A DNA stretch of 64,000 nt from an uncultured Gemmatimonadaceae bacterium (GCA_963829055.1 CAWHHI010000016.1:608001-672000), one strand, 5' to 3'. Shown: positions 5,275 through 63,884, counted from the first letter of the stretch. A program made the numbers and translations. The notes: a model not told the origin generated them from the letters alone.

Positions 5275-5382
5275 AAAATAACTTTCGCGAAAGCCACGTG
5301 CCGTTCGTGACCGAAGTGCCTAACGCCAGCCGTGCGCCATCGCTTCACACCAGAGGTACCCGTCACGCCAAACATCAACAGG

Positions 5383-5459
5383 TGGCGCGCCAGGAGGGAC
5401 TCGAACCCCCGACCCACAGCTTAGAAGGCTGTCGCTCTATCCACCTGAGCTACTGGCGC
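5383..5459 (-). tRNA. tRNA-Arg(TCT)
   Basis: GCGCCAGTAGCTCAGGTGGATAGAGCG, anticodon arm ACAGC-CTTCTAA-GCTGT, ending GTTCGAGTCCCTCCTGGCGCGCCA. Confidence 0.96.
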
Positions 5460-5499
5460 AATGGCCGAACCGACGCTCTCGAATGCCGAGCGCCACAAA

Positions 5500-5573
5500 T
5501 CGGGGCGCCCGGATTTGAACCGGGGACCTCCTGCTCCCAAAGCAGGCGCGATACCAGGCTACGCTACGCCCCG
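5500..5573 (-). tRNA. tRNA-Pro(TGG), CCA not encoded
   Basis: CGGGGCGTAGCGTAGCCTGGTATCGCG, anticodon arm CCTGC-TTTGGGA-GCAGG, ending GGTTCAAATCCGGGCGCCCCGA. Confidence 0.96.
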
Positions 5574-6228: not shown

Positions 6229-6950
6229 TCGGCGAGCGCTCGGCGCTGTGCTGCGTCGAGTACTTGAATTCCGCCCGTTGCGAGATCGAGCAGCGCGTCG
6301 AGTTGAGCGCGATCGAACGTTCCGTGCTCACCGGTGCCCTGCACTTCCACGAAGCGTCCTTCGCTGCTCATGACGACGTTCATGTCGACTTCTGCTTTCA
6401 CGTCGTGTTCGTAGTCCAGATCGAGCCATAGGGAGCCGTCGACGACGCCAACGCTCACGGCGGCGACACGCCGGCGAACGGGCGACTGTTGCATATGACC
6501 CTGTGCGACGAGCCAACTGAACGCGTCGTGAACCGCCACGCACGCCCCGGTAATCGCCGCCGTCCGCGTTCCTCCGTCTGCTTGCAATACGTCGCAGTCG
6601 AGGCGAACGGTAAACTCACCAAATCGGAAATCGTCGATCATCGCGCGGACGCTGCGACCGATGAGTCGTTGAATCTCTTGCGTGCGCCCACCGAGTTGCG
6701 CGCGCTCGCGCTGTGTGCGAGTGCGCGTAGCCCTCGGCAGCATCGCGTACTCCGCGGTGATCCAGCCTTCGCCGCGGCCTTTTTTCCACCCCGGAACGGA
6801 GAGCTCGACCGACGCCGCACACAGCACGCGCGTGTCACCGAACGAGATGAGGCACGATCCCTCGGCGTACGGGACAGCGTTCCGCTCCAACGTGATTGGG
6901 CGAAGGTCAGTCGGACGACGGGCGTCGTTAGGTGAAGTTTCAGCGGCCAC
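6225..6950 (-). CDS. rph: Ribonuclease PH
   Basis: Motifs [46 protein letters not shown] and EVQGTGE. Confidence 0.98.
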
Positions 6951-8888: not shown

Positions 8889-10985
8889 TGGATGACAATG
8901 CTCAGGATGCGATCGCCCTGCACGATAGAATCGAGGACGTTCAACCCTCGAGTGACGCGACCGAACACCGTGTAGTGGCCGTCGAGGTGTGGCTGAGGCG
9001 AGTGCGTAAGGAAGTACTGACTGCCGCCTGTATCCGGTCCAGACAGCGCCATGCCCACTGCCCCTCGCTCGTACCATTGCCGGTTGAGCTCATCGCGAAT
9101 CGCGTACCCTGGCCCGCCGCTACCGTCGCCCCTTGGGTCGCCGTCCTGGGCAACGAAGTTCGGCACGACGCGATGGAACGCGAGGCCGTCGTAATATCGG
9201 TGTCGCGCGAGCGTGATGAAGTTGCCCACCGTCAGCGGCGCGTCGGCGCCAGCGAACTCAATGTCGATCATTCCACGCTCGGTTGTGATGCGCGCTCGAG
9301 GTGGGCGGCGGAGGAGTGACGGTACCAGAATCGTTCGCACGCGGCCCAGGTAGTACGCGGTTGATTGCGCGGGAATTTCAGCGCCGGACCACGAGATGAA
9401 GGGACCGACGCGCCGAACAGCGTTGCGCTCGACCGGGTCAGCAGAAGGAGCGAGCGACGCGATGGAATCGCGCAAGGCGCCGAACGATGCGCTGTCGGTC
9501 GCCCAGGCCGCGGCAATGACTCCTAGGGCCGCGACTCTGGCGTCGTTTTCCGGATCCGTTGCCGCACGACGCCAGGCGGCGAGGGCCACGATTGCGTCAG
9601 ACGCTCTCGCGCGATCCCGCAGCGCGTTGAGAATCGAGGCGCGGACGAAGAGGTCGTCATCGTGAAGCCACCCTGGCAATGCGGCGCGGGCGTACGGGCG
9701 TGTCGCGGCACTGGCAGAATCGGTCCACGCCGGAGGCCGACTGGAACGCGGCGGCGCGCACCCGCGCGTCGGAATCGCGAAACAACGGTGCGGCAATGGC
9801 ATCGACCGCCGCCTGACCGCCGACGCCCGCCGCTTCCGCGGCGGCGGCTCGGAAATGCCAATCGGCGCGTCGCTGCCACGCTTCGGCACCGGCCGTATCG
9901 AGCGCGGGCATTCGGGCGCCCGCGCGAACGGCGGTCGACAACAGCGCGCGACGGAACGTGAACCCCGTGTCCGCCGCCCAGGCTGCGGACCAGTCAGGGG
10001 ACGGGACAGCGAGCACGCCGCCTAACGACTGTGCGACCGCGACGCGTGCATTGCCATCCGGGTCAGTGAGGTGTCGCACAAGGTCCGCGCGCGCTCTTGG
10101 ACCATACGTCGACAACGACCGGATCGCGTTAATGCGCACGTGCGCGTGGGGATCCTCCACGAGACGCCGCAACGCGGCACGGGCATCGTCGCCAAGCGAG
10201 TCGCCGGCGACCGTTCGACCGAGCCCCCTAGCGACGTAGGCGCGCAGATCGACTTCCACGTCCGAGCGATCAGGGCTCGTGTGTGTCGGCGACGCGGACG
10301 GGCGCCGTTCGAGTGCGAGGAGTGCACTCACCGACCCGGGAACCCTCGATCGGGTCAGCGCGTACGCAGCGCTCCGCTGTACACGTAGGTCGGCATGGTC
10401 GAGATATGGCACGATCAATCCCGCCGGCACTGGTCGAAGCTTCGCGGCTGCCTGCAGCACGTCTGCGAGCGACGTGGCGGGGCGGCCTTCCTTTAGCGAG
10501 GTTTCGAGGGTCGGACGCGCGACTTCACCGAGCTCGCCCAGCGACCAGGCGGCCGCCGATGCGACGGTGTGCGCAGCACCAAGGCTTGCGGCCAGCACGT
10601 TGGTCGCCGAGCTATCGTGCAGAAGGCCTAACGCGAAAGCGGCGTCGGCGGCGATCGTCGAGTCTGTATTGGCGACGAGAGATCTCACGATAGCCGCGCG
10701 GCTAGAAATGCCTACCTGTCCGATGACCCGCACGGCGTACGCCCGCACGAACGTTGTCGGTGATGCGAGGGCGCGGTCGACGACAGCGGTGTCGGGCCGT
10801 CTCGTATCAGCGACTCGCAGCAGGGATGCCAGGTGCTCGATATCTACCGCAGTGAACGGACTGTCGATAACCAACGGCGCCGCCGCGTCAGTGGGCTGCG
10901 GACGCGGCGCGCACGCAGCCGCAACCAGTACCGTGACCAACCCGAGGGCGACGCGCCACGAACGGCGGTCAGGAACGAACAACAC
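8885..10985 (-). CDS. HEAT-repeat lipoprotein fused to a cyclophilin-type peptidyl-prolyl isomerase (one frameshift near 9732)
   Basis: The N-terminal part (ORF 9657-11267) has a lipobox and HEAT-like repeats. The C-terminal part (ORF 8885-9889) has YDGLAFHRVVPNFVAQDGDP...GGSQYF...HLDGHYTVFG. One extra base splits the two. Confidence 0.85.
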
Positions 10986-11397: not shown

Positions 11398-12461
11398 CGG
11401 TCCAGTATGCCTAACGCAGCGGCACGGTCGCGAGCACTCGGGGTGAGCAGCGCATCGGCCGGTACGCGACCGCCGGTGCGGGCGAGTCGGATAACGTCGC
11501 GCTCCGTCACGAGCGGACGTTTTCGTTGAGTCGCCGAACGCCAGGCGATGATGCTCGCCGTATCGCCAGTCCTGACCCCGGCCGCACGCGCTTCGTCGAC
11601 ATCGAGGTGCAGCTCGCTCGCGTGGCCTTCGCCGGAGCGGACCAGCACCGTCATGGAACGTGGCGGCTCGCGCCCCGTCGCCGCATCGGACGTCCACCTC
11701 GGCGCCATTGGCCAAGCCCCAACGGTGCGCGTCGGTCGGGGCGCAGATGCAGGTGACGGGCGGCGATGATGACGCCGCGACGCAGGTCGACGCGTCCGGC
11801 TGGACCAACCAGCGTCACTCCACCCACCGAGGTGTCGAGGGAGCCGCTGGCGGCGACGGGCGCCTCGATGCCCAACAATCCGGCGTCGGATAGCGCGATT
11901 TCTAGCTGAGTGTCGCTTCGTGCCGGACCGACGACGCGCACGGCCTGTAGCTTCCCGTTGGGCCCCTCAATGTCGAGCGACTGGGTGGCGGCGAACTGGC
12001 CCGGCTGCGTCAACTCCCGCGCGACGGTCAATGGGGTTCCGCCGAACAGGGTCTGCACGTCGGCCCGCGACAGGTGCACGTGTCGGTTGGATACGCCGAT
12101 GCGCACGTCGATCGACGGGGCGTCGCAGCACGCGTTCGCGTTAGGCGTGCCTCGGCACCACGGGCGGTTGCGCTCAGGCGGCGGGCCTTTGCCGGCGGCG
12201 GCCGCCCGCGTCACACGCGTCAGCTCGCGGTGGACGTCCGAAAACGCGGACCGTCTCGTGACGCGCGACGGAGCGACGCCAGCCAGATCCTGTGCCGCAC
12301 CCGACCAGACTGGCGGGGTACCACCCCGTTCCGGCGGCGCGGGGCGCACGGGTGACGGTAACCATGTGGCTGCCCGTTCACCGGACGTACGCGTTGCCCA
12401 CCTGTTCGAGGAGTGCGCGAGCGATCAGCTCCGCCAGCCGGTCCAGCTCTGCGTCCGTCAC
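11394..12461 (-). CDS. pduL: Phosphate propanoyltransferase PduL with N-terminal encapsulation peptide (about 3 frameshifts)
   Basis: Motifs VSNRHVHLS, LTQPGQFAA, VRVVGP, TQLEIALSD, GVIIAARHLHL and ELHLDVDEA. The N-terminus MTDAELDRLAELIARALLEQ starts at GTG 12461. Confidence 0.85.
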
Positions 12462-13980
12462 CGGCGAGACGCTCGGAAGTCGGAGAGGAACTGGTCGACT
12501 ATTCGTTGGACATCGCCGGCGGGAAGTGATGCGGTGCGCGAGGCGGTGCCGCTATCTGCATTCGAATGCGACGGCTCGCCGAAGTCGACCGCACGTTTGC
12601 GCCGCCGGACGCTTCGCGCAGCGGGTCTACGTACGGCCGAATCTCTTCGCCCAGCCGCTTGATGTTTATCAGGTGAAGCGGCGTCACGTTGTCGGAGGTG
12701 ATGCTGCCGCCCCATGAGCCGGGTCCGAGCGTCATCGCCGGAGCGAAGCCGGTCGTGTAGCCCACTGCTCCGATCGCGACGTTCGAGTTCACGATGATGC
12801 GGAACGCCGGCTTCTCGGAGAAGAATCGGTCGATGACGTGCTGGTCCTGGCTGTGGATACCTAACGAGTGACCAAGGCCTCCGTACTCGAGCAACTCGAT
12901 CGCGCGCTCACAGCAGCGTTCCCAGCCGTCCTCGACGAAGAACCCCAGGACCGGGCACAGCTTCTCACGACTCAGCGGATCCTCGCGACCGACGTTCGCC
13001 AGATCCACGATCATCAGTTTCGCGTCTGGCGCGATAGCGAAGCCGGCCTTTCGCGCGATCTCCTGCGGCTGCTTACCAACGACGTCGGGATTGATGCCTT
13101 TGCCGCTCGGCGGAATCATCAGACGTTCCAGTGCGCGCTTCTCGTCCGCGTACAGAAGTGTGCCCGCTCGCGTTTGAATACGTCGCGCACTGCGCGCTCG
13201 ACGGGCGCATCGCAGACGACCGAGTTCTCCGCGGAGCAAAGCACGCCCGCGTCGAACGTCTTCCCGTCGACGACGTCTGCAACAGCCTTCTCGATTCGCG
13301 CCGTTCGCTCAATGATTGCAGGCACGTTTCCGGGTCCGACGCCGTACGCGGGCTTCCCTGCCGCGTACACCGCGCGCACCATGTCGGAACCGCCCGTGGC
13401 GAGAATGACCGCCGTGAGCTTGTGGCGCATCAAGGCGTTCGTCCCGTCCATGGTAGCCACGGTCATCGCGTTGACGAGCCCCGCCGGTGCGCCGGCGCCT
13501 AACGCAGCCGCTTCGAGAAGCCGAGCTGTCTCGACGACGCTCCTCGTCGCGCGCGGGTGCGGCGACATCACGATCGAGTTCCGCGCCTTCACCGAGATCA
13601 TTGCTTTGTAGATCGCGGTCGACGTCGGGTTCGTTGTGGGGATGATCGCTGCAACGACACCCATGGGGACGGCGAGCTCGCGGACCCTTCGCGTTCGGTC
13701 TTCGCGCAACACGCCGACGGTCTGCATCGGGCAGGATGTAGTCGAGCAGAAAGTCGGACGCGAAGCGATTCTTGATGACCTTGTGCTCGTAGACGCCCAT
13801 CCCGGTCTCGTCGACCGCCAGTCGCGCGAGTCGCTCGGCGTTCGACGACGCGGCAGCAGCCATCGCGCGAACCACGGCATCGACCTGACGTTGATCCGCC
13901 GTCGCGAACCGTCGCTGGGCGTCGGAGGCCGGCGCGACGAGGTCGCGCGCCTCCTGAACGCTCCGAAGGTCGGCGTCCAC
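12458..13980 (-). CDS. Acylating aldehyde dehydrogenase (EutE/PduP family), microcompartment-associated (about 3 frameshifts)
   Basis: Motifs DADLRSVQEARDL, AVDETGMG, PMGVVAAIIPTTNPTSTAIYK, LATGG, GVGPGNVP, catalytic GVLCSAENSV, EKLCPVL and GGSITSDNV. A C-terminal amphipathic DVQRIVDQFLSDF lies in the shifted frame. Confidence 0.9.
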
Positions 13981-13990
13981 GACTACTCGC

Positions 13991-14747: not shown

Positions 14748-14792
14748 CAGTCCTCCGGAACCACCAGTGAGTGCGCGATCGGCGCCGTGGCA

Positions 14793-14844: not shown

Positions 14845-14872
14845 GATCGCGGCGTCGAAGTAGACTGTCCCC

Positions 14873-15661: not shown

Positions 15662-16417
15662 GAAGTGGTCGGGCGCATCCGAGGCGATGAACCGATGTCG
15701 CCGAACAGCTGATCGGCCGATCGTTGCTTCATCCGCGAGAAGGCCACGTGTCTGGAGAATGCGTGCCGTCTCAGTCGCCGTTTCGTGCGCGCTATCGATG
15801 AGGATGACGTCTGGCCCGAGCACATCAGCGAGCAGCGGTTTTAGCAACGGATAGTGCGTGCAGCCGAGAACGAGTGTGTCGATGCCGGCAGCTTGCAGCG
15901 GCGTTAGGTATTCGCGCGCGATGAGCCGCGTCGCTTCTGTATCGAGCCAGCCCTCCTCGACGAGCGGAACGAAGAGCGGACATGCGCGTGCGACGATGTC
16001 CGCATCCGGAGCGATGGCGCGGATCGCTCGTTCGTATGCGCCGGAGCCGATCGTGCCCGACGTTCCAATGACGCCGAGCTCGAAACGGCGCGATGCGGCG
16101 ACGGCGGCTCTCGCGCCTGGCTCGACGACGCCGATCACCGGTACAGTGCACTCGCGCTGCAGTTGTGGCAGTGCGTGCGCGGTGGCGGTGTTGCAGGCGA
16201 CGACAATCGCCTTCACGTCCTGCGACATCAGGTACTCGGTGATCTCGCGGCTGTAGCGCCGCACCGTATCCGGGCTCTTGGGCCCGTATGGGACACGAGC
16301 GGTGTCACCGAAATAGATGACGCGTTCGTGCGGCAGTTGCCGCAGGACCTCGCGCACGACAGTGAGTCCGCCGATGCCGGAGTCGAAGATCCCGATTGGT
16401 GACGCTGGTGTGCTCAC
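15596..16417 (-). CDS. murI: Glutamate racemase
   Basis: Motifs IFDSGIGGLTV, GDTARVPYG, VACNTAT and LGCTHYP. Confidence 0.98.
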   Translation of the reverse strand: MSTPASPIGIFDSGIGGLTVVREVLRQLPHERVIYFGDTARVPYGPKSPDTVRRYSREITEYLMSQDVKAIVVACNTATAHALPQLQRECTVPVIGVVEPGARAAVAASRRFELGVIGTSGTIGSGAYERAIRAIAPDADIVARACPLFVPLVEEGWLDTEATRLIAREYLTPLQAAGIDTLVLGCTHYPLLKPLLADVLGPDVILIDSAHETATETARILQTRGLLADEATIGRSAVRRHRFIASDAPDHFLRLGQRFLGSAIECVETLTLG

Positions 16418-17198: not shown

Positions 17199-17203
17199 TC
17201 GCG

Positions 17204-24074: not shown

Positions 24075-24103
24075 AGGTTAGGGAACCGCTTGTACGTAGT
24101 CAA
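24075..24103 (-). promoter_or_regulatory. sigma70-type promoter of secDF
   Basis: TTGACT-17 bp-TAACCT upstream of secD. Confidence 0.65.
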
Positions 24104-44498: not shown

Positions 44499-44577
44499 GT
44501 CATTGCTGAGTGGAGCGAGCGAGCAGAAGGAGTCGAAGCATACCGCCTAACACAAGAGACTTCAAGCGATTGCTCGC

Positions 44578-48617: not shown

Positions 48618-50282
<1,665 letters not shown>

Positions 50283-50311
50283 TTAGGTGGAGAGGCCCTG
50301 CGGGCAGACGG

Positions 50312-53279: not shown

Positions 53280-54072
53280 GCGTGGCGACGAGCGCGAGAA
53301 CGAAACCGCCCAGCAGGATGCGGTAGAGCGCGAAGACGCCGAAGCTGTGGCGGCTCACGTAACGCAGCAGCACGGCGATCGCCAACCAGCCACTCAACGC
53401 GGACGTTACGATGCCGAGGATCAGCGGCGTTAGGTCGTCGGCCGTGAACAACGTGGGCGCCTTGAGGACCGCGGCTGCCGCCGTGATGGGCATGCTCATG
53501 AGAAAGCTGAACATCGCGGCGCTCTGCCGGTCGAACTTGAGCGCGCGGCCGGCGGTCATCGTCGATCCTGAACGCGACACGCCGGGCACGAGCGCGAACA
53601 CCTGCGCGAGCCCGATCAACACCGCGTCACGCACCCGCATCTTGCCGAGCGGACGGTCCTGGGGCGCGAAGCGATCCGCCGCCCAGAGCACCACGCCCAT
53701 GACGATGAGGGTGACGGCGATGAGCGAGGGCGAGCGAAACGTGCTCTCCGCATAGTCCTCGAGCAGCAGACCGCCGATCGCCGCTGGAATCGTCGCGATG
53801 ACGATGTGCAGGAAGCGCTGCTTCTCCTCGGTGTCGGCCTTGCGCGTTCGAAGCAGCGCAAACGCGGACTGCGTCAGCTTCACCCACTCGGCGCGAAAGT
53901 ACCACAGCACGGCGACGAGTGTTCCGACGTGAAGTGCGACGTCGAACGCGAGTCCGGGGTCGGACCAGCCAAAGATCCACGGCGTGAGCACGAGATGCGC
54001 GGAGCTGCTGATGGGCAAGAACTCGGCGAGTCCCTGGACGAGTCCAAGGATCACTGCCTGAAGCACGGTCAT
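53272..54072 (-). CDS. uppP: Undecaprenyl-diphosphatase
   Basis: Motifs QGLAEFLPISSSAH, PGVSRSGST and FSFLMSMP. Confidence 0.97.
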   Translation of the reverse strand: MTVLQAVILGLVQGLAEFLPISSSAHLVLTPWIFGWSDPGLAFDVALHVGTLVAVLWYFRAEWVKLTQSAFALLRTRKADTEEKQRFLHIVIATIPAAIGGLLLEDYAESTFRSPSLIAVTLIVMGVVLWAADRFAPQDRPLGKMRVRDAVLIGLAQVFALVPGVSRSGSTMTAGRALKFDRQSAAMFSFLMSMPITAAAAVLKAPTLFTADDLTPLILGIVTSALSGWLAIAVLLRYVSRHSFGVFALYRILLGGFVLALVATRG

Positions 54073-57028: not shown

Positions 57029-58775
57029 CCCAGGTGATCTGGACGATCGTCGATCGGCCGTGGACGTCGTGCGCGGGGAGCGTGGTTGCCGCCAGGCCAA
57101 CGTACAGCGCCTGCATCTCGGCGGGGGAGAGGGAGTCGCCGCCTTTGATCGCCGCCTTGCACGCGACAGTCGCAGCGAGACGTTCGTGCCGCGCGGCGGC
57201 GCTGGGGACGCGGTCGCCGGTGAGTGCGTCGAGCGTATCGCGCAGACATTGCAACGCGTCGAACCGCGGGTGAGGCATCGGCACCGCGGAGATGATGATC
57301 GAATGTCCGCCGAACGGCTCGATCTCGAATCCCAGCTTCACCAGTGTTTCACGATTCGCTTCGAACGCGTCCGCCTCGGCGGGGCCGAGATGGAGTGTCG
57401 CCGGAAACAGCAGTCGCTGTGACGGTGCCGCGCCTCGCTCGAGCACGTGCATGAACTGCTCGAACAGGATGCGTTCGTGCGCGGAGTGCTGGTCGATGAG
57501 CACCACGCCCTCCGCGCGCTCGAACATCAGGTAGGTTCGGCGGAGCTGCAGGAGCGGCGGCACGTCGGACACCGTCGAGTCGCGCACCGGGCCCGCCGCG
57601 GAAAACGCGGGCGCGTTCGACGCGTTAGGCGATGGAGAGAAGAGCCCCTCCGCCGGCGCCGGTCGCGACTCGAGCACCTCGACGTCGACGGGCGTCGTGA
57701 CCGTCCCCGCCCCCGGCGTGAACGTCCAGTTCCGCGATGCGCCGACGAAAGCGGCGCTGCTCGGCTCACCAAGTGCGCGACGCACGGCATGCTCGACCGC
57801 CCGCTCCACGGGCCAGCGGTCACGAAAGCGGACTTCCGCCTTGGCCGGATGAACGTTCACATCCACCGCATCCGCAGGCAGAACGATCTCGAGGAAGAGC
57901 GACGGCCGCACGCCTGGAACGATCGTCGAGCGATATGCGCTCTCGGCGGCGCGTACGATGCCCGCATCGCGCACGGGCCGGCCGTTCACCGCGAGTGATA
58001 TGCGTCGGCTGGCCGTACCGACGTCGGCGGGGCGCTCGACGAGGCCGCTCACGTGAATCGGCCCACTCACGTCGTCCGCTTCGATGAATCGCTCGGCGAA
58101 CGCACCGCCCCAGATGCCAGCGATCCGCACTCGCATGGATGACGCCGGCGGCAGGCTCAATGCGTTCTTCCCGTCATTCGTGACGGCGAGACGCAGGTCG
58201 CGTCTGCATAACGCGGTCGCGATGAGCGAGTCGATGGCCGCGCGCCACTCCGACCGTGCACTGCGCAGAAACTTGAGGCGCGCCGGCAGGTTGTAGAACA
58301 GCTGACCGACCGAGACAGTCGTGCCGGCGCGCCGAGTCGTCGGCGAAACGTCGGTGACGGTCCCACCCGCTACGCGAACGAGTGTCGCGTCCACGCCGTC
58401 CACGGCCGACGCGATCTCCAACCGCGAGACCGACGCGATCGCCGGGAGCGCCTCGCCGCGAAAACCGAAGCTGGAGACGCCGACCAGGTCCGCCGCACTG
58501 CGGATCTTCGACGTCGCGTGACGCTCGAGCGCGAGCAGCAACTGCTCGCGATCCATCCCGCAGCCGTCGTCGCTCACGCGGATGAGCGTGCGTCCGCCGT
58601 CTTCGAGGGCAACTTCGATTGTCGTCGCGCCGGCGTCGAGCGCATTCTCGACCAGCTCTTTCACCGCCGAGGCAGGCCGTTCCACCACTTCGCCGGCCGC
58701 GATCTGGTCAGCCACCGCCGGCGGCAGAACGGCGATGCGCGACGGCCGGCGGACGTCCGCGCCGGTCGCGGTCAT
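56997..58775 (-). CDS. mutL: DNA mismatch repair endonuclease MutL
   Basis: Motifs QIAAGEVVERPAS, RHATSK, GFRGEAL, DVNVHPAKAEV, DQHSAHERILFE, ACK and HGR. Confidence 0.97.
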   Translation of the reverse strand: MTATGADVRRPSRIAVLPPAVADQIAAGEVVERPASAVKELVENALDAGATTIEVALEDGGRTLIRVSDDGCGMDREQLLLALERHATSKIRSAADLVGVSSFGFRGEALPAIASVSRLEIASAVDGVDATLVRVAGGTVTDVSPTTRRAGTTVSVGQLFYNLPARLKFLRSARSEWRAAIDSLIATALCRRDLRLAVTNDGKNALSLPPASSMRVRIAGIWGGAFAERFIEADDVSGPIHVSGLVERPADVGTASRRISLAVNGRPVRDAGIVRAAESAYRSTIVPGVRPSLFLEIVLPADAVDVNVHPAKAEVRFRDRWPVERAVEHAVRRALGEPSSAAFVGASRNWTFTPGAGTVTTPVDVEVLESRPAPAEGLFSPSPNASNAPAFSAAGPVRDSTVSDVPPLLQLRRTYLMFERAEGVVLIDQHSAHERILFEQFMHVLERGAAPSQRLLFPATLHLGPAEADAFEANRETLVKLGFEIEPFGGHSIIISAVPMPHPRFDALQCLRDTLDALTGDRVPSAAARHERLAATVACKAAIKGGDSLSPAEMQALYVGLAATTLPAHDVHGRSTIVQITWDELERRFGRK

Positions 58776-61180
58776 CGACGGCCGTCGGCCCAGGGACGCG
58801 CGATCGGCTCGAGCTGATCCGTCTCGACCCACCCTTCCCTGTCGTCCCCCGCCCTAACGAGCGACCACACGCCCTCCTCGCGGACCGTGCGGGCGATCTC
58901 GCCGGTGAGCAGCACTGCACCCGGTTCTCCGCCAAGCGCCGGCAGTGAGCGCAGGCGCGCGGCGTCGGTGACCACGACGAGCCGGCGTGCGTCGTATGCC
59001 TCCCGTACCCTAACGCCGACGATACCGCTGCAGACGGCGATGATGCCAAGCCCGTAGGCGGCGTACCGCCACCGCGCGCGCCGGCGCCAGATCCCGATCG
59101 CGGCGAACAGCCAGCCAAGCAGCCACGCTGTTCCACCGACGATCGCGACCGTCGATTCGTCGACTGGCGGCACGCTGGCCAATCCGCTACCGCCGAATCC
59201 AGGCGTGAGGTCCAGCCGCGACCTGGCATCGGGCGCCGTTGGCTCCAGGCGCAGCGCGCGCTGCCAGCCGATTGCCGCGGCAGAGGTATCTCGCGCGGCC
59301 CAGGCGGCGGTTCCGAAGTTCGCCCACGCATCCGCCGACGTGGGCTCCGCACGCGCCGCTTCCGCGAAGAATCGCTCGGCGCGTGCGAACCGACGCGCCT
59401 CGTATTCACGCACGCCACGGTCGAACGATTCGCGGGCGGGCGGCTGCTGCGCCGTGCTCAGCGACATGCCTAACAAGGCGATCGAGGCCAATGAGCGCGG
59501 GCTTCCGCGTTGGGGCGCGCGCGGTCGCGCCTCGTGATCGACCTGTGCCAGAACGTGGACGGCGCGCTTGACGCCGTCGTCGAGCGAATGGCCGGCACCG
59601 GAGTACACCGCCGCGTCCAGCTCGCCGAGTAGCTCGTCGGCGGCGCGCGACACCTCGGCGGTGACGCCACTCCGCCGGAGCGCACGAACAAGCGCGCGTC
59701 GGTCCGCCAGCTGTGCCGCGGCCACGCCAATACGCTCGGCGAGTGCCGCGGCATAGGTCCGGCGGAGCATCGCGGCATCGGCATGGGACGACGTCAACGG
59801 GCCGCGGGCAAGCTTGCGCAGGCGTTCAGCTGCTGTCGGCACGCGACGAGACCGCGGACGACGCACGACGAGCGCGAGCGCCGCGGGCAGCGGCGCCACC
59901 AGCATCGCGATCCAGAAGCCGTCGCGTCTCGAGAGAGGCGTGCGACCCTGCGCCTTCATAACGCGACGCACCGGGAATACCGGCCGAGTGGAGTCTGCGG
60001 TAGCGTCCACCGCGATGAGCGTCCCGGGAGCAACGGACACGTGCTGCGGCGTGGTCACCGCGAGCTCGTAGCGCTCCGTGTACGGGTTGAAGAACGGATA
60101 GCGGATGGGCGGCACCTCGACGTCACCGCTTTTCACCGGCGTGATCACCCAGTCGAATTCCTTGGCGCCACGCACGACGACGGCGCTGGAATCGAGCTGC
60201 ACTCGCTCCTCCGCCGGGACCAGCTGCCCCCATGGCACACGCACCGCTGGCCGCGGGAAGAAACTCACGTTGCCGTCACCGACGACACGAACCGTGAACA
60301 CCAGAGGATCGCCGACCTTCGCCGGTCCGCTATCGACGTGCGCTTCGATGGCGAGGCGGCCGACCGCCCCGTTGTAATCCGATGGCTTGCCGGACTGCGG
60401 CGGATCGATCACCACGACCGGGACAGTTTCAGAGCGAAGCTGGTGGCTCTCCTCGCGGCTGAAGAAGCTCGCACTGAGCGGCAGCGAGTAATTCAGGCGA
60501 GCCGGAGGGATCTCGTATCGCCCAGCGGTGAGCGGAAAGAGCGCCCGCTGGAACACGTGGACCTCATAACGCCGACCGTCGATCACGCGCTTCGACACGA
60601 ACGAGCGTGGCGCCGCCAGGTCGTACGCCAGCATCGAGCGCAGCTCGGGCGGAATGAACTCCGGGTTGCGGCGCAAGCGATAGCGCACGTCGTCGTTCAG
60701 GAACACGCCAACCTGATACGTCGCCTGCTCGCCGACATACACCGTGTCGGGCGAGACCAGGGCGTGGAAGTTCACGCCGTCGCGAGGATCGAGCCGCGAT
60801 CGTGAGACGACCGCGGGCACCTGGACCGGCGGCGCGTTTACGATCGTTAGGCGGATCGACTCCGATCGGCCCGTCATTGGACCGACGCTCGCCACGATGG
60901 GCGGCAGCACTACTGTCCCCGCACGCTGTGCCACGACGAGATACTTGTGCTCGACGACCGCCAGCGATCGCGACATCGTCCCGCCGCCCCCAACCCGGGT
61001 CGACTCCTCGACACGGACGCCGCCGAGCGGGCCGAACTGCGGCGGGCGGATCATTGGCGCGACCGGGCCGCGCACGGCCGCGCGTACCGTCACCGTCGCT
61101 GGCTGCCGGACGGTGAGCGTCTCGGGAGCCGTAACGGTGACGACGATCTGCAGCGCGATGCCGGCGAGAGAAAGAATCAC
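58772..61180 (-). CDS. BatD-like protein fused to a BatE-like TPR + TM + SH3b region
   Basis: Repeated Ig-like BatD segments (YVGEQ, PPARL, YNGAVG, PPIRYPFFNP), a TM segment, a TPR (AWANFGTAAW...WQRALRLEP), further TM segments and an SH3b-like end (REGWV). Confidence 0.8.
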   Translation of the reverse strand: MILSLAGIALQIVVTVTAPETLTVRQPATVTVRAAVRGPVAPMIRPPQFGPLGGVRVEESTRVGGGGTMSRSLAVVEHKYLVVAQRAGTVVLPPIVASVGPMTGRSESIRLTIVNAPPVQVPAVVSRSRLDPRDGVNFHALVSPDTVYVGEQATYQVGVFLNDDVRYRLRRNPEFIPPELRSMLAYDLAAPRSFVSKRVIDGRRYEVHVFQRALFPLTAGRYEIPPARLNYSLPLSASFFSREESHQLRSETVPVVVIDPPQSGKPSDYNGAVGRLAIEAHVDSGPAKVGDPLVFTVRVVGDGNVSFFPRPAVRVPWGQLVPAEERVQLDSSAVVVRGAKEFDWVITPVKSGDVEVPPIRYPFFNPYTERYELAVTTPQHVSVAPGTLIAVDATADSTRPVFPVRRVMKAQGRTPLSRRDGFWIAMLVAPLPAALALVVRRPRSRRVPTAAERLRKLARGPLTSSHADAAMLRRTYAAALAERIGVAAAQLADRRALVRALRRSGVTAEVSRAADELLGELDAAVYSGAGHSLDDGVKRAVHVLAQVDHEARPRAPQRGSPRSLASIALLGMSLSTAQQPPARESFDRGVREYEARRFARAERFFAEAARAEPTSADAWANFGTAAWAARDTSAAAIGWQRALRLEPTAPDARSRLDLTPGFGGSGLASVPPVDESTVAIVGGTAWLLGWLFAAIGIWRRRARWRYAAYGLGIIAVCSGIVGVRVREAYDARRLVVVTDAARLRSLPALGGEPGAVLLTGEIARTVREEGVWSLVRAGDDREGWVETDQLEPIARPWADGRR

Positions 61181-62886
61181 CAGTCCTTTCCGCCCGGCGG
61201 TGGTTGCGGACGATTCTGCTGCTGCTTGCGCGCCTGCACGTTGCGCTCTTCGCGTTGCGCGCTATTCAGCAACTGTTCCGCCTGTTGATCGCCGAGACCT
61301 CCGCTTGGCCGGTCGGACTGCGGCTGACGCGGAGGGCTCGGCTGATTTTGATTGCCGCCACCACCACCGCCGCCTCCGCCACCACCGCCGCCGCCACTCT
61401 GCTGTTGTTTCTTGCGCAGCGCGAGCTCGTAATTCCATTTCGCATCTCCGTCGCTCGATCGCATGAGCAGCGCGCGCTTGTATGACTCGAGTGCCGCGTC
61501 CAGCGATGGCGTGGCGGAATCGCCTTTCGCGGCGAGGCCGCGTTTCAGATGCGCGAGCCCGAGGTTGAAGATCGCGCGAAAGCGGACCTCCGGGTCAGTT
61601 GCCTTGACGGCACGCTCCAGCACGTCGATCGCCGACGCGAGCGAGTCAGCGGCCAGCAATGACGTCCCCAGGTTGTAGAGCACTTCCGGCCGCTTGTCGC
61701 CACGCTCGAGCGCGCGACGGTACAGTGCCGCCGCCCGCATGTAGCGCTTGGCGGAATACTCCCGCGCGGCATCACGAACGTCGTCGGCGCGTGCAGCGCG
61801 AAGAGGCACAAGCATCGCTGTCGCCGCGGTGAGCAACACGGTCGCGGCAGTAGCGGCGGCTGCAGCCGAGCGTCGCCGACGTCCGCGTCGCTCCGCGAGC
61901 GCCGTGTCGAGGAGCAGAAGCAGCACGGCAGGAATCAGGAAAAGTTGAAAGCGCGGTGTCTGAGTACGCCCCGCCTCGACGGCACGTTGCACGCCTCGCA
62001 GTTGAACGAGCGCGCGGCGCACCTTCGCGGCCTTGTCGCTCTCGGCCGCATCGATGAACGTGCCACCGGAGCCTTCAGACGCGGCCCGAAGCATCTCCGG
62101 ATGGTACTTCGTGATCACGACGTTGCCTTCCGGGTCGCGCTTCTCGACGATCGCGTTGCCTTCGCGAACGGGGATGGGCGCGCCGGCGGGCGTCCCGAAA
62201 CCAACAGTGACGATGCTGACACCGGCTTCGGCCGCCTGCTTCGCCGCAGCGACGACATCCTCCGGCGGCTCGAATGCCTCGCCGTCGCTGAAAATGACGA
62301 TCGCATGATCGCTGCCGCTCTTGGTCGCGACGAGCAGGTCCGTTCCCTGCCGAATGGCGCGAGCGAGCGAGCTTCCAGCCTGCCCGACCACTGAAGGGTC
62401 GAGGTTGTCGAGAAAGAGATCGAGCGCCGCGTCGTCCACGGTGAGCGGCGTGAGGATATAGCTTCGCCCCGCGAACGCGAGCAGCGCGAACCGATCGCTG
62501 GGCGACGCGGCGCGCAGGCGACGGATCTCCTGCTTCACCTTCTCCAGTCGATTCGGCCGCTCGTCGGTCGCCATCATCGACAGCGATGCGTCGACCGCCA
62601 GCACGATATCGACGCCTTCGCCGCGAACGACGGTCCGCTCGACGCCCCAGCGTGGGCCGGCGATGGCGATTCCGGCGAACGCGGTCGCGAGCGCGAGACG
62701 CGTCGCGCGCCAGCCCGGCGGCACGGCGGCGTTAGGCGGCACGAGCCGCGCGATCATCGACGCGGAGCCCAGCCGGTCGAGCCGTGCGCGCCGCCGCCGG
62801 TACCCGACGATCACGAGCGCGATCACGAGGATCGGAAGCAGGACCGCGAGCGCGAGCAGCAGCGGATGATCGATGACGGGCTTCAC
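61177..62886 (-). CDS. VWA domain + TPR protein (BatB-BatC fusion)
   Basis: MIDAS motif DASLSM, PNRL, PLTVD and SDGE, then TPRs (YNLG, FNLG, AKWNYEL), a Gln/Gly linker and a terminal KDW. Confidence 0.88.
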   Translation of the reverse strand: MKPVIDHPLLLALAVLLPILVIALVIVGYRRRRARLDRLGSASMIARLVPPNAAVPPGWRATRLALATAFAGIAIAGPRWGVERTVVRGEGVDIVLAVDASLSMMATDERPNRLEKVKQEIRRLRAASPSDRFALLAFAGRSYILTPLTVDDAALDLFLDNLDPSVVGQAGSSLARAIRQGTDLLVATKSGSDHAIVIFSDGEAFEPPEDVVAAAKQAAEAGVSIVTVGFGTPAGAPIPVREGNAIVEKRDPEGNVVITKYHPEMLRAASEGSGGTFIDAAESDKAAKVRRALVQLRGVQRAVEAGRTQTPRFQLFLIPAVLLLLLDTALAERRGRRRRSAAAAATAATVLLTAATAMLVPLRAARADDVRDAAREYSAKRYMRAAALYRRALERGDKRPEVLYNLGTSLLAADSLASAIDVLERAVKATDPEVRFRAIFNLGLAHLKRGLAAKGDSATPSLDAALESYKRALLMRSSDGDAKWNYELALRKKQQQSGGGGGGGGGGGGGGNQNQPSPPRQPQSDRPSGGLGDQQAEQLLNSAQREERNVQARKQQQNRPQPPPGGKDW

Positions 62887-63884
62887 GCGGCGCGCTCCTT
62901 CGGCGGTTCCGCCGCGGCGAGCTTCGCTTCTTCGGCAGCCTTGAGCTCGGCCGCGTGTATGGCGCCGACAATCCCTCGCGCCTCGGCACCGAGCTCCCGC
63001 GCGCGCTCCGCCGTGGTTGCACGACGCGCGAACTTCACGAGATCGGCGTCCGCGAGTACGAGCGCGAGTCTATTCACAGGCACCGAACGATTGTCGCGAA
63101 CGGCGATGAGCAGCTCATTCGTCGTCAGCGCCGGGTGTGCGTCGGGAATGCGGCGCGCGAGGTACGTGCGCAGCACCTCCACCGTGAGCGCGACATATCG
63201 TCCGCGCTCACCGGCCTCCACCAACCCCAGTCGTTCGACGCGCTCGAACTCCGCTTCTGCGTCCGCGTACGGATCGTCCAACGCGCCCTGACGGCGCTTA
63301 CGACGGCGATGCCACCACCACCAGAACAGTCCAATGAGGCCGATGACAGCGAGCGCGGCGAGCAGCCAGTACCACCACGGCAGCCCGAACTCGAAGATTG
63401 CGCGCTGCGGCTTCGGAATGCGCTGTGCGGTATCAGCCGGGAGCACGCTGCGCACGTGGACGCGCAGCGCGCTGAGCGGGATGCGCCGCTCGCGACCGTC
63501 GAAACGAACGACGACGTCCTGGATCCGAAGCGGCTGGTCGCCAATGTCCCACGCCGCGAGACGCCACGTCCCGATGAGATCGAGCGCGGTCGAATCGGGA
63601 GTCTGGCGTTCCTGCTTCGGATCGAGCGCCTCGACGGTGGCACCCGAGTCGGGGCCGACCGGAAACTCGACCGACGCGCCGAGCGGCGCGTGAATGCGAA
63701 CCGTTAGGCGGAAGGGATCGCCGACCGTGACCGTGTCCGGATCGATGGAGAAGCCCATCTGCACCGGCAGCGCCGCTTGTGAAGCGGCGGACGCTGGACG
63801 CCGCGGCGCACCCTGCGACGGCGCACCCTGCGACGGCCCGCCTTGAGCAACCGCGAGCAGCAGTGGCCAGAGCGCCGCGATCAC
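62883..63884 (-). CDS. Bat-operon membrane protein (DUF4381/BatD-like)
   Basis: Signal peptide, PDTVTVGDPF, a TM segment, LRTYL, LTTNEL and ADLVKFA. Confidence 0.75.
   Translation of the reverse strand: MIAALWPLLLAVAQGGPSQGAPSQGAPRRPASAASQAALPVQMGFSIDPDTVTVGDPFRLTVRIHAPLGASVEFPVGPDSGATVEALDPKQERQTPDSTALDLIGTWRLAAWDIGDQPLRIQDVVVRFDGRERRIPLSALRVHVRSVLPADTAQRIPKPQRAIFEFGLPWWYWLLAALAVIGLIGLFWWWWHRRRKRRQGALDDPYADAEAEFERVERLGLVEAGERGRYVALTVEVLRTYLARRIPDAHPALTTNELLIAVRDNRSVPVNRLALVLADADLVKFARRATTAERARELGAEARGIVGAIHAAELKAAEEAKLAAAEPPKERAA

What the first reader, a model, noticed from the sequence alone, without database searches (positions are those of the whole stretch)
5318..63709. A non-palindromic motif, (R)CCTAACG, is embedded throughout genes on both strands at the cost of rare codons
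SEEN: at least 38 exact copies by manual scan. CCTAACG starts at 5319, 10021, 10627, 11410, 12860, 13498, 17694, 19303, 22774, 25265, 30138, 37163, 37411, 38680, 40585, 46788, 51916, 58853 and 59009. CGTTAGG starts at 6926, 12139, 15902, 18206, 27348, 27935, 35809, 38067, 40176, 46530, 48436, 50261, 50281, 53027, 53428, 57623, 60845, 62730 and 63702. Three more sites keep only the CCTAAC core (about 24077, 44546, 59469). The 5' flanking base is G in 28, A in 7, C in 3 and never T. Outside the rRNA operon I found only two other CTAAC/GTTAG pentamers (34016 and the CIRCE). The 35 coding copies use all four stop-free frames about equally: x-Leu(TTA)-Gly 11, Val-Arg(AGG) 9, Leu(CTA)-Thr 8, Pro-Asn 7. 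A peptide motif therefore cannot explain it, and TTA, CTA and AGG are among the rarest codons in high-GC genomes. A rough zero-order expectation, assuming about 67% GC (estimated by eye), is about 7 copies, and TA depletion should lower that further. KNOWN: Neisseria DUS, Pasteurellaceae USS and cyanobacterial HIP1 also sit inside coding DNA at high density, while Chi and KOPS are strand-polarised. INFERENCE: the 19:19 split argues against Chi or KOPS, and the asymmetry argues against a HIP1-type palindrome. Candidates are a new DNA-uptake sequence, a chromosome-wide protein-binding site, or a methylation-linked motif. I know of no description of this motif in Gemmatimonadota but cannot search the literature.
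Basis: partly seen in the sequence, partly recalled or inferred. Interest (0 to 1): 0.93.

Follow-up and report, generated by a model that had tools for sequence, protein, structure and literature searches.

The report
Genome-wide GCCTAACG word in Gemmatimonadales
This soil bacterium, some of its relatives and at least two of their phages carry one eight-letter DNA word about once per kilobase, against their own codon habits. The word is also the core recombination site of integron gene cassettes, and whatever reads it is still unknown.

Summary
The window has 38 exact CCTAACG copies (19 per strand) against 2.7 expected. Genome-wide there are 6,391 copies, and the full word GCCTAACG (5,004 copies, about 49 times expectation) is the most over-represented 8-mer. 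A synonymous-codon shuffle gives 298 copies in called genes against 3,718 observed, and 59% of all TTA codons lie inside the word. It shows no replication or gene-strand polarity and is denser outside genes.

It is enriched only in scattered genera of one order (Gemmatimonadales): 16 of 401 phylum genomes have at least twice the control count. A 50-kb foreign segment and integron cassette interiors lack it.

Two new points emerged. The word equals the R''/R' core site of this order's integron attC sites. Two IMG/VR phage records carry it at host-like density inside structural genes.

No C5 methyltransferase or Vsr was found in the genomes searched, and no other methyltransferase family, ComP-type receptor, IntI or RecC tracks it. 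Competence genes occur in rich and poor genomes alike.

My reading is a DNA-level identity word read inside the cell, most likely kept by biased correction (0.3). Uptake-sequence drive (0.25) and a nuclease self-tag (0.2) remain close rivals. I found no publication describing it.

The parts
5319..5325 (+). CCTAACG copy (between tRNA genes)
6926..6932 (-). CCTAACG copy
10021..10027 (+). CCTAACG copy
10627..10633 (+). CCTAACG copy
11410..11416 (+). CCTAACG copy
12139..12145 (-). CCTAACG copy
12860..12866 (+). CCTAACG copy
13498..13504 (+). CCTAACG copy
15902..15908 (-). CCTAACG copy
17694..17700 (+). CCTAACG copy; also in an independent run's contig
18206..18212 (-). CCTAACG copy; shared with G014; also in an independent run's contig
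19303..19309 (+). CCTAACG copy; shared with G001
22774..22780 (+). CCTAACG copy inside groEL; shared with G001
25265..25271 (+). CCTAACG copy; shared with G001
27348..27354 (-). CCTAACG copy
27935..27941 (-). CCTAACG copy; shared with G014
30138..30144 (+). CCTAACG copy; GTT AGG here where four of five relatives read GTG CGC (Val-Arg, synonymous; G003 reads GTT CGC)
35809..35815 (-). CCTAACG copy
37163..37169 (+). CCTAACG copy
37411..37417 (+). CCTAACG copy
38067..38073 (-). CCTAACG copy
38680..38686 (+). CCTAACG copy
40176..40182 (-). CCTAACG copy
40585..40591 (+). CCTAACG copy
46530..46536 (-). CCTAACG copy
46788..46794 (+). CCTAACG copy
48436..48442 (-). CCTAACG copy
50261..50267 (-). CCTAACG copy (close direct pair with 50281)
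50281..50287 (-). CCTAACG copy
51916..51922 (+). CCTAACG copy
53027..53033 (-). CCTAACG copy
53428..53434 (-). CCTAACG copy
57623..57629 (-). CCTAACG copy
58853..58859 (+). CCTAACG copy
59009..59015 (+). CCTAACG copy
60845..60851 (-). CCTAACG copy
62730..62736 (-). CCTAACG copy
63702..63708 (-). CCTAACG copy
44546..44552 (+). variant GCCTAACA (second commonest 8-mer variant after ACCTAACG, 435 copies genome-wide)
59469..59475 (+). variant GCCTAACA
24077..24082 (-). core-only GTTAGG (CCTAAC on the - strand)

Best explanation
GCCTAACG/CGTTAGGC is a lineage-restricted identity word of double-stranded DNA. An unidentified sequence-specific reader favours it over synonymous alternatives wherever the protein sequence allows, so it accumulates to about one copy per kb. 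Changes that destroy the word are removed and changes that create it are kept. This is the logic proposed for HIP1 and, as I recall, shown for Dcm/Vsr at CCWGG, but here no methyltransferase is apparent. Shown: the enrichment, its independence of strand, frame and replication direction, its codon cost, its graded and patchy spread, its absence from foreign DNA, its identity with the attC core site, and its presence in phages.
For: The force acts at the DNA level with a measurable strength. 61% of P-N-[VADEG] contexts (1,071 of 1,757) read CCT AAC G, although CCT is 6.5% of Pro codons elsewhere. 28% of [SPTA]-L-G contexts (1,486 of 5,260) use TTA, against 0.6% of Leu codons elsewhere. Occupancy falls with codon cost: L-T 7.9%, V-R 4.1%. 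By my arithmetic these odds ratios of about 22 to 63 correspond to an effective strength of about 3 to 4. Density is higher outside genes (G304 0.98 against 0.58 per kb; G014 2.61 against 1.63). Density is graded among genera, from 0.04 to 1.7 per kb, as expected for slow accumulation after a harmless bias is gained. Foreign DNA lacks the word: the 49.6-kb stretch C6:5441-55038 carries a second, 47-60% identical set of housekeeping genes. Cassette interiors of the C20 integron also lack it. Phage records carry it at host-like occupancy. G419 has 31 copies against 1 control in 17 kb, with L-G contexts 9 of 10 and P-N 10 of 15. G421 (CheckV 98% complete, not flagged as provirus) has 29 against 3 control, with L-G 17 of 34. 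Both have head, portal and terminase genes. The richest host sample, G014, shows L-G 49% and P-N 69%.
Against: No enzyme has been identified. No C5 methyltransferase was found in G000, G304, G014 or G240. Vsr was searched only in G000 and was not found. No methyltransferase family tracks the word. A repair system that corrects all eight positions toward one word has no precedent that I know of. Short spacings between copies are depleted: at 200 bp or less, 6.5% observed against 15.3% expected. Biased repair does not predict this, although the depletion is seen mainly for pairs inside called genes and could reflect the cost of clustered rare codons (tandem copies occur in G304 spacers). The phage lifestyles are unresolved: no integrase appeared among the 30 of 49 G421 ORFs scanned at E <= 1e-6. 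A temperate phage could acquire the word as a prophage.
Confidence: 0.3

Rival explanations
1. The word is a DNA uptake sequence of the USS/DUS kind. A surface receptor of the competence machinery prefers DNA carrying it, and uptake followed by homologous recombination drives it to high density. In one variant, the receptor targets the attC core word and so preferentially imports integron cassettes.
For: The overall picture matches USS/DUS: about 0.8 copies per kb, both strands, all open frames, frame use following codon cost, denser in spacers, and missing from foreign DNA. Compare the abstract and table heads of PMC2817400, seen in outline: 1,471, 765 and 1,892 uptake sequences, 34.5-65% in ORFs, frame use correlated with preferred codons, and genes without homologs lacking uptake sequences. 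The P-N dipeptide is mildly enriched (1.39, rank 7 of 400). G010 has a one-letter dialect, GCCAAACG (925 against 110 control); compare the DUS dialects in the PMC3630211 abstract. ComEC is present in 40 of 41 relatives. DprA is present in all 5 genomes searched and small ComEA-like HHH_3 ORFs in 4 of the 5 (only a weak partial hit in G000); type IV pilins also occur. Passages of PMC7305173 link ComEC loci to recombination in soil bacteria. Transformation feeds cassettes to integrons in Vibrio (PMC12614218 abstract and passages).
Against: Phage genomes carry the word at host-like or higher occupancy, which uptake drive does not predict. The competence genes are equally present in word-poor genomes. 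No ComP_DUS match over cut-off was found in 5 genomes. The distribution is patchy within families, and even within genus g46 (3,479-4,141 copies against 66), unlike the family-wide, phylogeny-following DUS.
Confidence: 0.25
2. The word is a self tag read by a DNA-end-processing or surveillance nuclease, with Chi-like logic. Resident DNA carrying it is spared or repaired, and DNA lacking it is degraded. Hosts accumulate it by weak selection and phages copy it to escape.
For: It is an asymmetric 8-mer, as I recall Chi to be. It is absent from foreign DNA. Phages copy it, with occupancy reaching 9 of 10 L-G contexts in G419, compared with 49% in the richest host sample. Phage G421 shows an orientation switch near 8.5 kb that gene strand does not explain: 7 + and 1 - before it, 5 + and 21 - after it (breakpoint chosen post hoc). 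The patchy spread is typical of defence genes.
Against: There is no replication polarity in the host. In windows with GC skew above 0.01 the counts are 526 forward and 570 reverse; below -0.01 they are 839 and 814. RecC was not found in 40 of 41 relatives. AddAB/AdnAB were not tested. The density is far above that of any Chi I know of. No candidate nuclease has been identified.
Confidence: 0.2
3. The copies are functional double-stranded R boxes: binding or cleavage sites of an integron-type tyrosine recombinase, acting as attG-like cassette entry sites or recombinase decoys.
For: The word equals the R'' box plus G of the attC sites. In the G027:C95 array all 23 sites with the word on one strand begin GCCTAACG, and 22 of them have a downstream GTTRRRY box (19 GTTAGGC, 17 of them TGTTAGGC). 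G000's own attC sites read GCCTAACGC...ACGTTAGGC. It fits the R'' RYYYAAC and R' GTTRRRY consensus. IntI1 binds double-stranded L and R boxes of attI, and genomic attG sites exist (passages of PMC12901181, PMC3053210 and PMC12614218). The -1 base is a purine in 91% of copies. One-strand arrays with the same 8-mer occur in IMG/VR contigs of 30-65% GC.
Against: IntI over cut-off occurs in 24 of 41 relatives, both rich and poor. It is only fragments in the richest genome G014 and was not found in G002, G004, G010 or G020. The dispersed copies have no L box or partner: there is no information beyond the 8-mer. Variants that preserve the Y positions are not enriched, while GCATAACG and G010's GCCAAACG break the consensus. 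Thousands of entry sites inside genes would be hazardous. No route from recombinase binding to accumulation by point substitution is known.
Confidence: 0.08
4. The word is the binding site of a nucleoid-associated or chromosome-organising protein and is selected for its effect on chromosome structure.
For: Spread along contigs is roughly even (mean 41 per 50 kb), and close pairs are depleted.
Against: There are no macrodomain-scale gaps apart from foreign DNA. Phages carry it. There is no candidate protein. Spacers contain tandem copies.
Confidence: 0.07
5. The pattern is a chance or compositional effect, an assembly artefact, or a hidden peptide motif.
For: None beyond the general rarity of TA-containing words in GC-rich genomes.
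Against: None of 100 dinucleotide shuffles and none of 20 codon shuffles reach the observed counts. It is the top-ranked 7-mer and 8-mer against an order-2 Markov model. Four frames on two strands are used. The word is present in short-read MAGs of many studies and in independent runs.
Confidence: 0.01

Closest known systems
DNA uptake sequences: USS of Pasteurellaceae and DUS of Neisseriaceae
   Same: A short non-palindromic word at about 1 per kb on both strands, in coding and non-coding DNA. Frame use is governed by codon cost and the encoded peptide is mildly enriched. The word is missing from recently acquired DNA. A one-letter dialect exists in one genus, and the competence genes are present.
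   Different: Uptake bias is untested. There is no ComP-type receptor match. The distribution is patchy within families and within one genus, not family-wide. Phage genomes carry it at host-like density. The word coincides with the integron attC core site.
HIP1 and alternate highly iterated palindromes of cyanobacteria (PMC4390886, abstract seen)
   Same: An octamer at roughly 1 per kb written into genes in all frames. Some lineages lack it or carry a replacement word. A repair-based origin has been proposed.
   Different: This word is not a palindrome. No cognate methyltransferase is present: no C5 methyltransferase was found in four rich genomes, and no methyltransferase family tracks the word.
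Integron attC core sites (R'' RYYYAAC and R' GTTRRRY)
   Same: The letters are identical: GCCTAAC/GTTAGGC, plus the following G in this order's attC sites. True attC arrays with this word occur in G000 and its relatives.
   Different: The roughly 6,400 dispersed copies are solitary. They have no L box, hairpin partner or cassette. They sit inside ordinary genes as synonymous recodings and do not depend on intI being present.
Chi and KOPS/AIMS (recalled from memory)
   Same: Asymmetric 8-mers that are over-represented in core DNA and read by DNA-translocating enzymes.
   Different: Those signals are co-oriented with replication and are far less dense. This word shows no skew, and RecC was not found.
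Dcm/Vsr very-short-patch repair raising CCWGG frequency (recalled from memory)
   Same: A known case in which sequence-specific mismatch correction shifts word frequencies and also acts on phage DNA.
   Different: Its effect is small and limited to one position. It depends on a C5 methyltransferase and Vsr. The methyltransferase was not found in four rich genomes, and Vsr was not found in G000, the only genome searched for it.

Membership tests
DNA uptake sequence (USS/DUS) | A short word hyper-abundant on both strands, in genes and spacers, at about 1 per kb | tested here: met
   6,391 copies, 0.82 per kb, strands equal on every contig. All four open frames are used. Spacers are denser.
DNA uptake sequence (USS/DUS) | Competent cells preferentially bind or take up DNA carrying the word | not testable with these tools
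   This needs uptake or transformation assays.
DNA uptake sequence (USS/DUS) | A dedicated receptor (ComP minor pilin in Neisseriaceae) | tested here: not met
   PF16732 gave no match over cut-off in G000, G014, G240, G293 or G304. The weak hit is an ordinary type IV pilin. A different receptor cannot be excluded.
DNA uptake sequence (USS/DUS) | Competence machinery present | tested here: met
   ComEC was found in 40 of 41 relatives and DprA in 5 of 5 genomes. HHH_3 matched in 5 of 5, with small ComEA-like ORFs in 4 of them and only a weak partial hit in G000. Word-poor genomes have these genes equally.
DNA uptake sequence (USS/DUS) | Word shared across the family, with dialects that follow phylogeny | tested here: not met
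   Only 16 of 401 phylum genomes have at least twice the control count. In genus g46, three genomes have 3,479-4,141 copies and one has 66.
DNA uptake sequence (USS/DUS) | Mobile or foreign DNA lacks the word | tested here: inconclusive
   The foreign 50-kb segment and cassette interiors lack it. However, two phage records carry it at host-like density.
HIP1-type iterated palindrome | Palindromic sequence | tested here: not met
   GCCTAACG is not its own reverse complement.
HIP1-type iterated palindrome | A cognate methyltransferase is present wherever the word is abundant | tested here: not met
   PF00145 was found in 0 of 4 rich genomes. PF01555 was found in 0 of 3 (G000, G304, G240). PF02384 was not found in G000. 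The D12 enzyme is present in poor genomes and not found in rich G014.
Chi / KOPS | Orientation skewed with replication direction | tested here: not met
   Counts are 526 forward and 570 reverse where GC skew is positive, and 839 and 814 where it is negative. The heterogeneity chi-square is 167 on 145 windows.
Chi / KOPS | Cognate RecBCD reader | tested here: not met
   RecC (PF04257) was found in 1 of 41 relatives. AddAB/AdnAB were not tested.
Integron attC site | R'' RYYYAAC and R' GTTRRRY boxes | tested here: met
   The word is GCCTAAC/GTTAGGC. attC arrays in G027, G025 and G000 use it. The consensus comes from passages of PMC12901181 and PMC3053210.
Integron attC site | Imperfect inverted repeat of 57-141 nt with L boxes, downstream of a cassette ORF | tested here: not met
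   There is no sequence information beyond positions -1 to +7. Convergent neighbours at 30-150 bp number only 51 of 6,371 adjacent pairs. The copies lie inside ordinary genes.

The most novel reading that the evidence does not exclude
The integron recombination core site has been imprinted on whole chromosomes and their phages. A mobile reader tied to integron biology would be responsible. It could be a repair activity that maintains attC R boxes, or an uptake receptor that fishes for cassettes. Either would convert near-matches everywhere into GCCTAACG.
Probability: 0.15. Interest if true: 0.95.

Novelty: new variant of a known kind. Interest (0 to 1): 0.8.

Why it matters
Genome-wide identity words are experimentally understood only for the uptake sequences of two proteobacterial families. 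HIP1 remains unexplained after decades. This is a very strong example: 49-fold enrichment, with 59% of all TTA codons in called genes inside the word. It occurs in an abundant, poorly studied soil phylum and has features that no known system combines. It is asymmetric yet unpolarised, has no methyltransferase, is switched on or off within a genus, is copied by phages, and is identical to the integron core site.

It gives concrete handles.

It also has practical uses. It can flag foreign or chimeric DNA in MAGs, as in the C6 segment found here. It can help assign phages to hosts. If it proves to be an uptake signal, it could make Gemmatimonadota genetically tractable.

Tried and rejected
- **D12 adenine methyltransferase.** This is the only DNA methyltransferase family found in G000 and the gene is frameshifted. 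It is present in 17 of 41 relatives, including word-poor ones, and was not found in rich G014 or in G010.
- **IntI.** No association with word density.
- **ComP_DUS.** No real hit.
- **ComEC, ComEA-like and DprA.** Not discriminating.
- **RecC.** Essentially not found.
- **GCCAAACG as a widespread dialect.** Only G010 shows it. No genome of the 401-genome sample is strongly enriched; the best is G323 with 205 against 82.
- **Prophage route.** TerL_ATPase (PF03354) was not found in 16 genomes. A search for relatives of the phage portal protein returned only the query's own contig.
- **Site sharing between genera.** Of 44 G014 sites in contexts permissive in both genomes, 7 are shared with G000. 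The numbers are too small to separate ancestry from independent gain.
- **Strain variants from public runs.** None of the 40 listed variant places falls in the 14 word sites of window 10001-30000, but 687 variants were not shown, so this is uninformative.
It is confounded, because it is strong for pairs inside called genes and absent for pairs outside them.
- **Genes next to G000's intI.** These are ordinary cassettes (BrnT-like, DUF1801, DUF4440) with no candidate reader.
- **Literature search with 7-mers matched anywhere.** Primer noise only.
- **Not run.** Complex prediction, structure prediction and the protein databases were not used, because no candidate protein emerged.


Full report
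**Observation.** Dinucleotide-preserving shuffles give 2.68 +/- 1.69, and 0 of 100 shuffles reach 38.
- The flanking base is G 28, A 7, C 3, T 0.
- There are three core-only sites.
- Only 8 of 46 CTAAC/GTTAG pentamers lie outside the motif, and three of those are in the rRNA operon.

Rfam places 23S rRNA at 1-1693, 16S rRNA at 2131-3677, three tRNAs at 5202-5573 and tRNA-Sec at 17106-17198. The window is G000:C16:608001-672000. The genome has 7.78 Mb in 20 contigs and is 86% complete.

**Genome-wide statistics.**
- CCTAACG occurs 6,391 times (0.82 per kb), about equally on both strands of every contig.
- Markov expectations are 353 (order 1), 249 (order 2) and 720 (order 3).
- The flank is G in 78%, A in 13%, C in 7% and T in 2% of copies. 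There is no further information outside positions -1 to +7 except codon periodicity.
- GCCTAACG (5,004 copies against 102 expected at order 2) is the top 8-mer of the genome, and CCTAACG is the top 7-mer.
- Of the 21 single-mismatch 7-mers, 4 exceed their order-1 expectation: CCTAACA 3.95x, CATAACG 2.28x, CCTGACG 1.64x and CCGAACG 1.12x. The others lie at 0.17-1.0x.
- GCCTAACA (435 copies), GCCTAACC (112), GCCTAACT (79) and GCATAACG (583) share the G flank, so they belong to the same system with looser ends.

**Codon level.** I called genes with a home-made codon log-odds ORF caller.
- It covers only 66% of G000 but 90% of the complete relative G304.
- G000 carries single-base indels relative to short-read contigs of the same population. 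One example is an inserted G behind 12576 in all four runs laid.
- In called genes there are 3,718 copies. Shuffling synonymous codons within each gene gives 298 +/- 22 (20 shuffles, maximum 348). This null is conservative because it reuses the rare codons that the word itself supplies.
- 59% of all TTA codons (1,486 of 2,511), 22% of CTA, 9% of AGG and 15% of CCT lie inside the word.
- Occupancy of peptide contexts that permit the word synonymously:

| Context | Occupied | Share |
|---|---|---|
| P-N-[VADEG] | 1,071 of 1,757 | 61% |
| [SPTA]-L-G | 1,486 of 5,260 | 28% |
| xxC-L-T | 700 of 8,830 | 7.9% |
| xxC-V-R | 461 of 11,378 | 4.1% |

- Occupancy therefore falls as the number and rarity of the required codons rise. 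By my arithmetic, the odds ratios against background codon use are about 22 (CCT) and about 63 (TTA). That corresponds to an effective force of about 3 to 4 in units of 2Nes.
- At window site 30138 four of the five relatives read GTG CGC where G000 reads GTT AGG, three synonymous changes; G003 reads GTT CGC.
- The P-N dipeptide is mildly enriched: observed/expected 1.39, rank 7 of 400.

**Polarity, spacing and location.**
- Orientation does not follow GC skew: 526 forward and 570 reverse in windows with skew above 0.01, and 839 and 814 below -0.01. The heterogeneity chi-square is 167 on 145 windows.
- Orientation does not follow gene strand either: 1,771 sense against 1,947 antisense.
- Close neighbours are depleted relative to an exponential: ratio 0.24 below 30 bp, 0.61 at 150-200 bp, 0.91 at 200-300 bp, and 1.3 at 500-1,000 bp. 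Relative orientation makes no difference.
- The depletion is strong for pairs inside called genes (1.8% at 100 bp or less against 8.0% expected) and absent for pairs outside them (7.2%). The latter class is biased toward short distances. G304 spacers even hold tandem copies.
- Density is higher outside genes: G304 0.98 against 0.58 per kb, and G014 2.61 against 1.63.

**Distribution.**
- Named relatives found through GroEL are Gemmatimonadaceae, Gemmatimonadales or Gemmatimonadota MAGs. Of 80 such loci, 20 carry at least 0.1 words per kb.
- Among 41 relatives, all 7 genomes of the window's genus have 2,501-5,112 copies and G014 (another genus) has 6,360. Reversed-word controls in these genomes are about 250-370.
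- Nine genomes are intermediate (173-605 copies), and the rest lie below their control.
- Samples of G040, G019 and G020 show the same 8-mer as the top word, dispersed on both strands at 0.2-0.35 per kb.
- In a 401-genome sample of the phylum (147 genera), 16 genomes have at least twice the control count. All 16 are in families f1 and f2 of one order. None of the 135 genomes of families f4-f12 reaches its control.
- Genus g46 holds three genomes with 3,479-4,141 copies and one (G293) with 66.
- G010 carries a second, commoner word, GCCAAACG (925 against 110 control). That word is not strongly enriched in any genome of the 401-genome sample.
- G036 shows GCATAACG (12 against 0.8 expected).
- Sites are conserved between species of 80-87% nucleotide identity: G240 shares 8 of 10 with G401 and 7 of 9 with G297. 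G293 has ordinary preferred codons at 5 of 5 aligned sites.
- In the window, G001 shares 3 of 8 sites, G014 2 of 5, and G003, G010 and G016 0 of 4, 3 and 4.
- The tallies "of 41" and "of 401" include the unpublished genomes G013, G085, G203 and G124. G013 is one of the poor genomes with the D12 enzyme.

**DNA that lacks the word.**
- The largest gap is C6:5441-55038 (49.6 kb, GC 70%). It encodes FtsK, DAHP synthase, chorismate synthase, leucyl aminopeptidase, a glutamine amidotransferase and others.
- Five of the six proteins I checked have a second copy elsewhere in G000 at 47-60% amino-acid identity (32% for the phosphoglucomutase). The stretch is therefore foreign or chimeric DNA.
- In the integron array at C20:200-207 kb, the word occurs only in the attC sites, not inside the cassettes.

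**Integron link.**
- In word-poor relatives, many of the few hits lie on one strand at 500-650 bp spacing inside a conserved element (G027:C95, C80, C43 and G025:C3).
- These are attC sites of 90-133 nt. Their form is GCCTAACG...GTTAGGC: 22 of the 23 G027:C95 sites have a GTTRRRY box downstream, 19 of them GTTAGGC (17 as TGTTAGGC).
- G000 has its own integron. The intI gene is at C20:208041-208958 (TIGR02249, 265.7 bits; Pfam Phage_integrase plus SAM-like N-terminal domain). Its cassettes are BrnT-like, DUF1801 and DUF4440. The attC sites read GCCTAACGC...ACGTTAGGC.
- Passages of PMC12901181 and PMC3053210 give R'' as 5'-RYYYAAC-3' and R' as 5'-GTTRRRY-3'. The crossover lies after the first base of R'. 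IntI1 binds double-stranded L and R boxes of attI, and genomic attG sites exist.
- PMC8618304 (one passage) lists Gemmatimonadota among integron-bearing phyla.
- The hyper-abundant word is thus letter-for-letter the local attC core site. The same 8-mer also heads one-strand arrays in IMG/VR contigs of 30-65% GC.
- The dispersed copies are nevertheless not attC sites. They have no partner or L box, and only 51 of 6,371 adjacent pairs are convergent at 30-150 bp.
- Variants that respect the consensus pyrimidines are not enriched.
- IntI over cut-off occurs in 24 of 41 relatives without regard to word density, and it is fragmented in G014.

**Search for a reader.**
- G000 gave no match to PF00145, PF03852 (Vsr), PF01555 or PF02384.
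- G000's one D12 methyltransferase is frameshifted, and its family does not track the word.
- In the better genomes, PF00145 is missing from rich G304, G014 and G240 and from poor G016, and present in poor G293. PF01555 is missing from G304 and G240. PF02384 gives only a weak hit in G240.
- ComEC is present in 40 of 41 relatives. DprA occurs in all 5 genomes searched. HHH_3 matches occur in all 5, with small ComEA-like ORFs in 4 of them and only a weak partial hit in G000.
- ComP_DUS has no match over cut-off.
- RecC occurs in 1 of 41 relatives.

**Phages.** This test followed an earlier scan note.
- I scanned IMG/VR for two copies 400-430 bp apart.
- Besides attC-like one-strand arrays, it returned records with the word on both strands.
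- Whole-record counts: G419, a 17-kb fragment, has 31 against 1 control. G421 (44 kb, CheckV 98% complete, not flagged as provirus) has 29 against 3. G422, a provirus, has 18 against 0.
- PHROGs finds major head, scaffold, portal, TerL and TerS proteins in G419. In G421 it finds RecT-like, replication-initiator, TerL and portal proteins.
- No integrase appeared among the 30 of 49 G421 ORFs scanned.
- The copies sit in the same four frames as in the hosts. Occupancy in G419 is L-G 9 of 10, P-N 10 of 15, L-T 6 of 34 and V-R 6 of 36. In G421, L-G is 17 of 34.
- The richest host sample, G014, shows 49%, 69%, 26% and 11% for the same contexts.
- In G421 the orientation switches near 8.5 kb (7 + and 1 - before, 5 + and 21 - after), although nearly all genes are on one strand. 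The breakpoint was chosen post hoc and the switch is unexplained.

**Interpretation.**
- Shown: a DNA-level force of moderate strength favours one asymmetric 8-mer in either orientation. It acts in scattered lineages of one order. It leaves recently acquired DNA untouched, and it acts on or is copied by phage genomes.
- Inferred: - Of the intracellular options I commit to biased correction toward the word (0.3). A naive genome can acquire such a bias harmlessly and then fill up gradually, which matches the graded densities.
- Its weaknesses are the missing enzyme and the lack of any precedent for eight-position correction.
- A nuclease self-tag (0.2) explains phage mimicry equally well, but it lacks the expected polarity.
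- Classical uptake drive (0.25) explains everything except the phages and the patchiness.
- The attC identity is unlikely to be chance. By my arithmetic, 128 of 65,536 octamers fit RYYYAACN or its complement. It fits none of the simple recombinase models.
- The boldest surviving reading is an integron-linked mobile reader (0.15).

**Literature.**
- No paper in the library contains GCCTAACG, CGTTAGGC, GCCAAACG or CGTTTGGC as a word.
- None combines Gemmatimonad* with "uptake sequence".
- Six papers combine Gemmatimonad*, integron and attC. By their listings none concerns this word.
- A search on Gemmatimonad* with competence or methylome terms gave only PMC7305173 as relevant.
- What I saw of each paper:
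  - Abstract and outline: PMC2817400, PMC3630211, PMC4390886. A term search of PMC4390886 found no mention of phage.
  - Passages: PMC12901181, PMC3053210, PMC8618304, PMC12614218, PMC7305173.
  - Search listing only: 10.1101/2025.06.16.659825, PMC1939737, PMC2346458.
- No supplements were opened.
- My statements about Chi, KOPS, Dcm/Vsr and lambda are recalled from memory.

**Earlier notes of this scan.** These report the same word in other Gemmatimonadaceae genomes, in soil Verrucomicrobia, in a phage, and at the ends of integron cassettes.
- I found the attC identity on my own, before reading those notes.
- I confirmed the phage point on IMG/VR records.
- I confirmed the lack of replication polarity here. 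The gene-strand preference reported there is weak in G000 and about 2:1 in the G304 sample.

Noticed in passing
window 11651, 12226, 12250, 12256, 12391, 12576, 18319, 20171, 20445, 24153: Single-base insertions or deletions relative to short-read contigs of the same population, several of them shared by 2 to 4 independent runs. The G000 assembly therefore carries indel errors that break reading frames. My ORF caller covers 66% of G000 against 90% of G304.
   Followed up: partly
G000:C6:5441-55038 (outside the window): A 49.6-kb stretch of 70% GC has no copy of the word. It encodes a second, 47-60% identical set of housekeeping genes (FtsK, DAHP synthase, chorismate synthase and others). It is either a chimeric join or a large foreign insert.
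   Followed up: yes
G000:C20:~119-209 kb (outside the window): An integron with intI at 208041-208958, an adjacent cassette array (BrnT-like toxin, DUF1801 and DUF4440 cassettes), and further attC sites scattered from 119 to 193 kb and at 890 kb.
   Followed up: partly
G000:C16 about 550 kb, roughly 58 kb upstream of the window: GC skew changes sign from positive to negative, so a replication origin or terminus probably lies close to the window.
   Followed up: no
G000:C8:134.6-135.7 kb (L001 654-1785, - strand): The only D12-class DNA adenine methyltransferase in the genome is split over two frames, either by frameshift or by assembly error.
   Followed up: partly
L256 (G240:C2) 15589-15713: An inverted-repeat element of about 125 bp with dozens of copies in G297, resembling a MITE.
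   Followed up: no
G421 (IMG/VR phage record, L408-L410): The orientation of the word switches near 8.5 kb, close to the replication-initiator gene, although nearly all genes are on one strand.
   Followed up: partly
G010 and G036 samples (L033-L052, L109-L118): One-letter variants reach high counts in single genera: GCCAAACG in G010 (925 copies) and GCATAACG and GCCTGACG in G036.
   Followed up: partly
window 17106-17198 (- strand): A selenocysteine tRNA gene (Rfam RF01852, 71 bits).
   Followed up: no
rich genomes G000, G304 and G240 against poor genomes G293 and G016: The word-rich genomes searched have fewer classical DNA methyltransferase families than the two poor ones. The sample is far too small to call this an association.
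   Followed up: no
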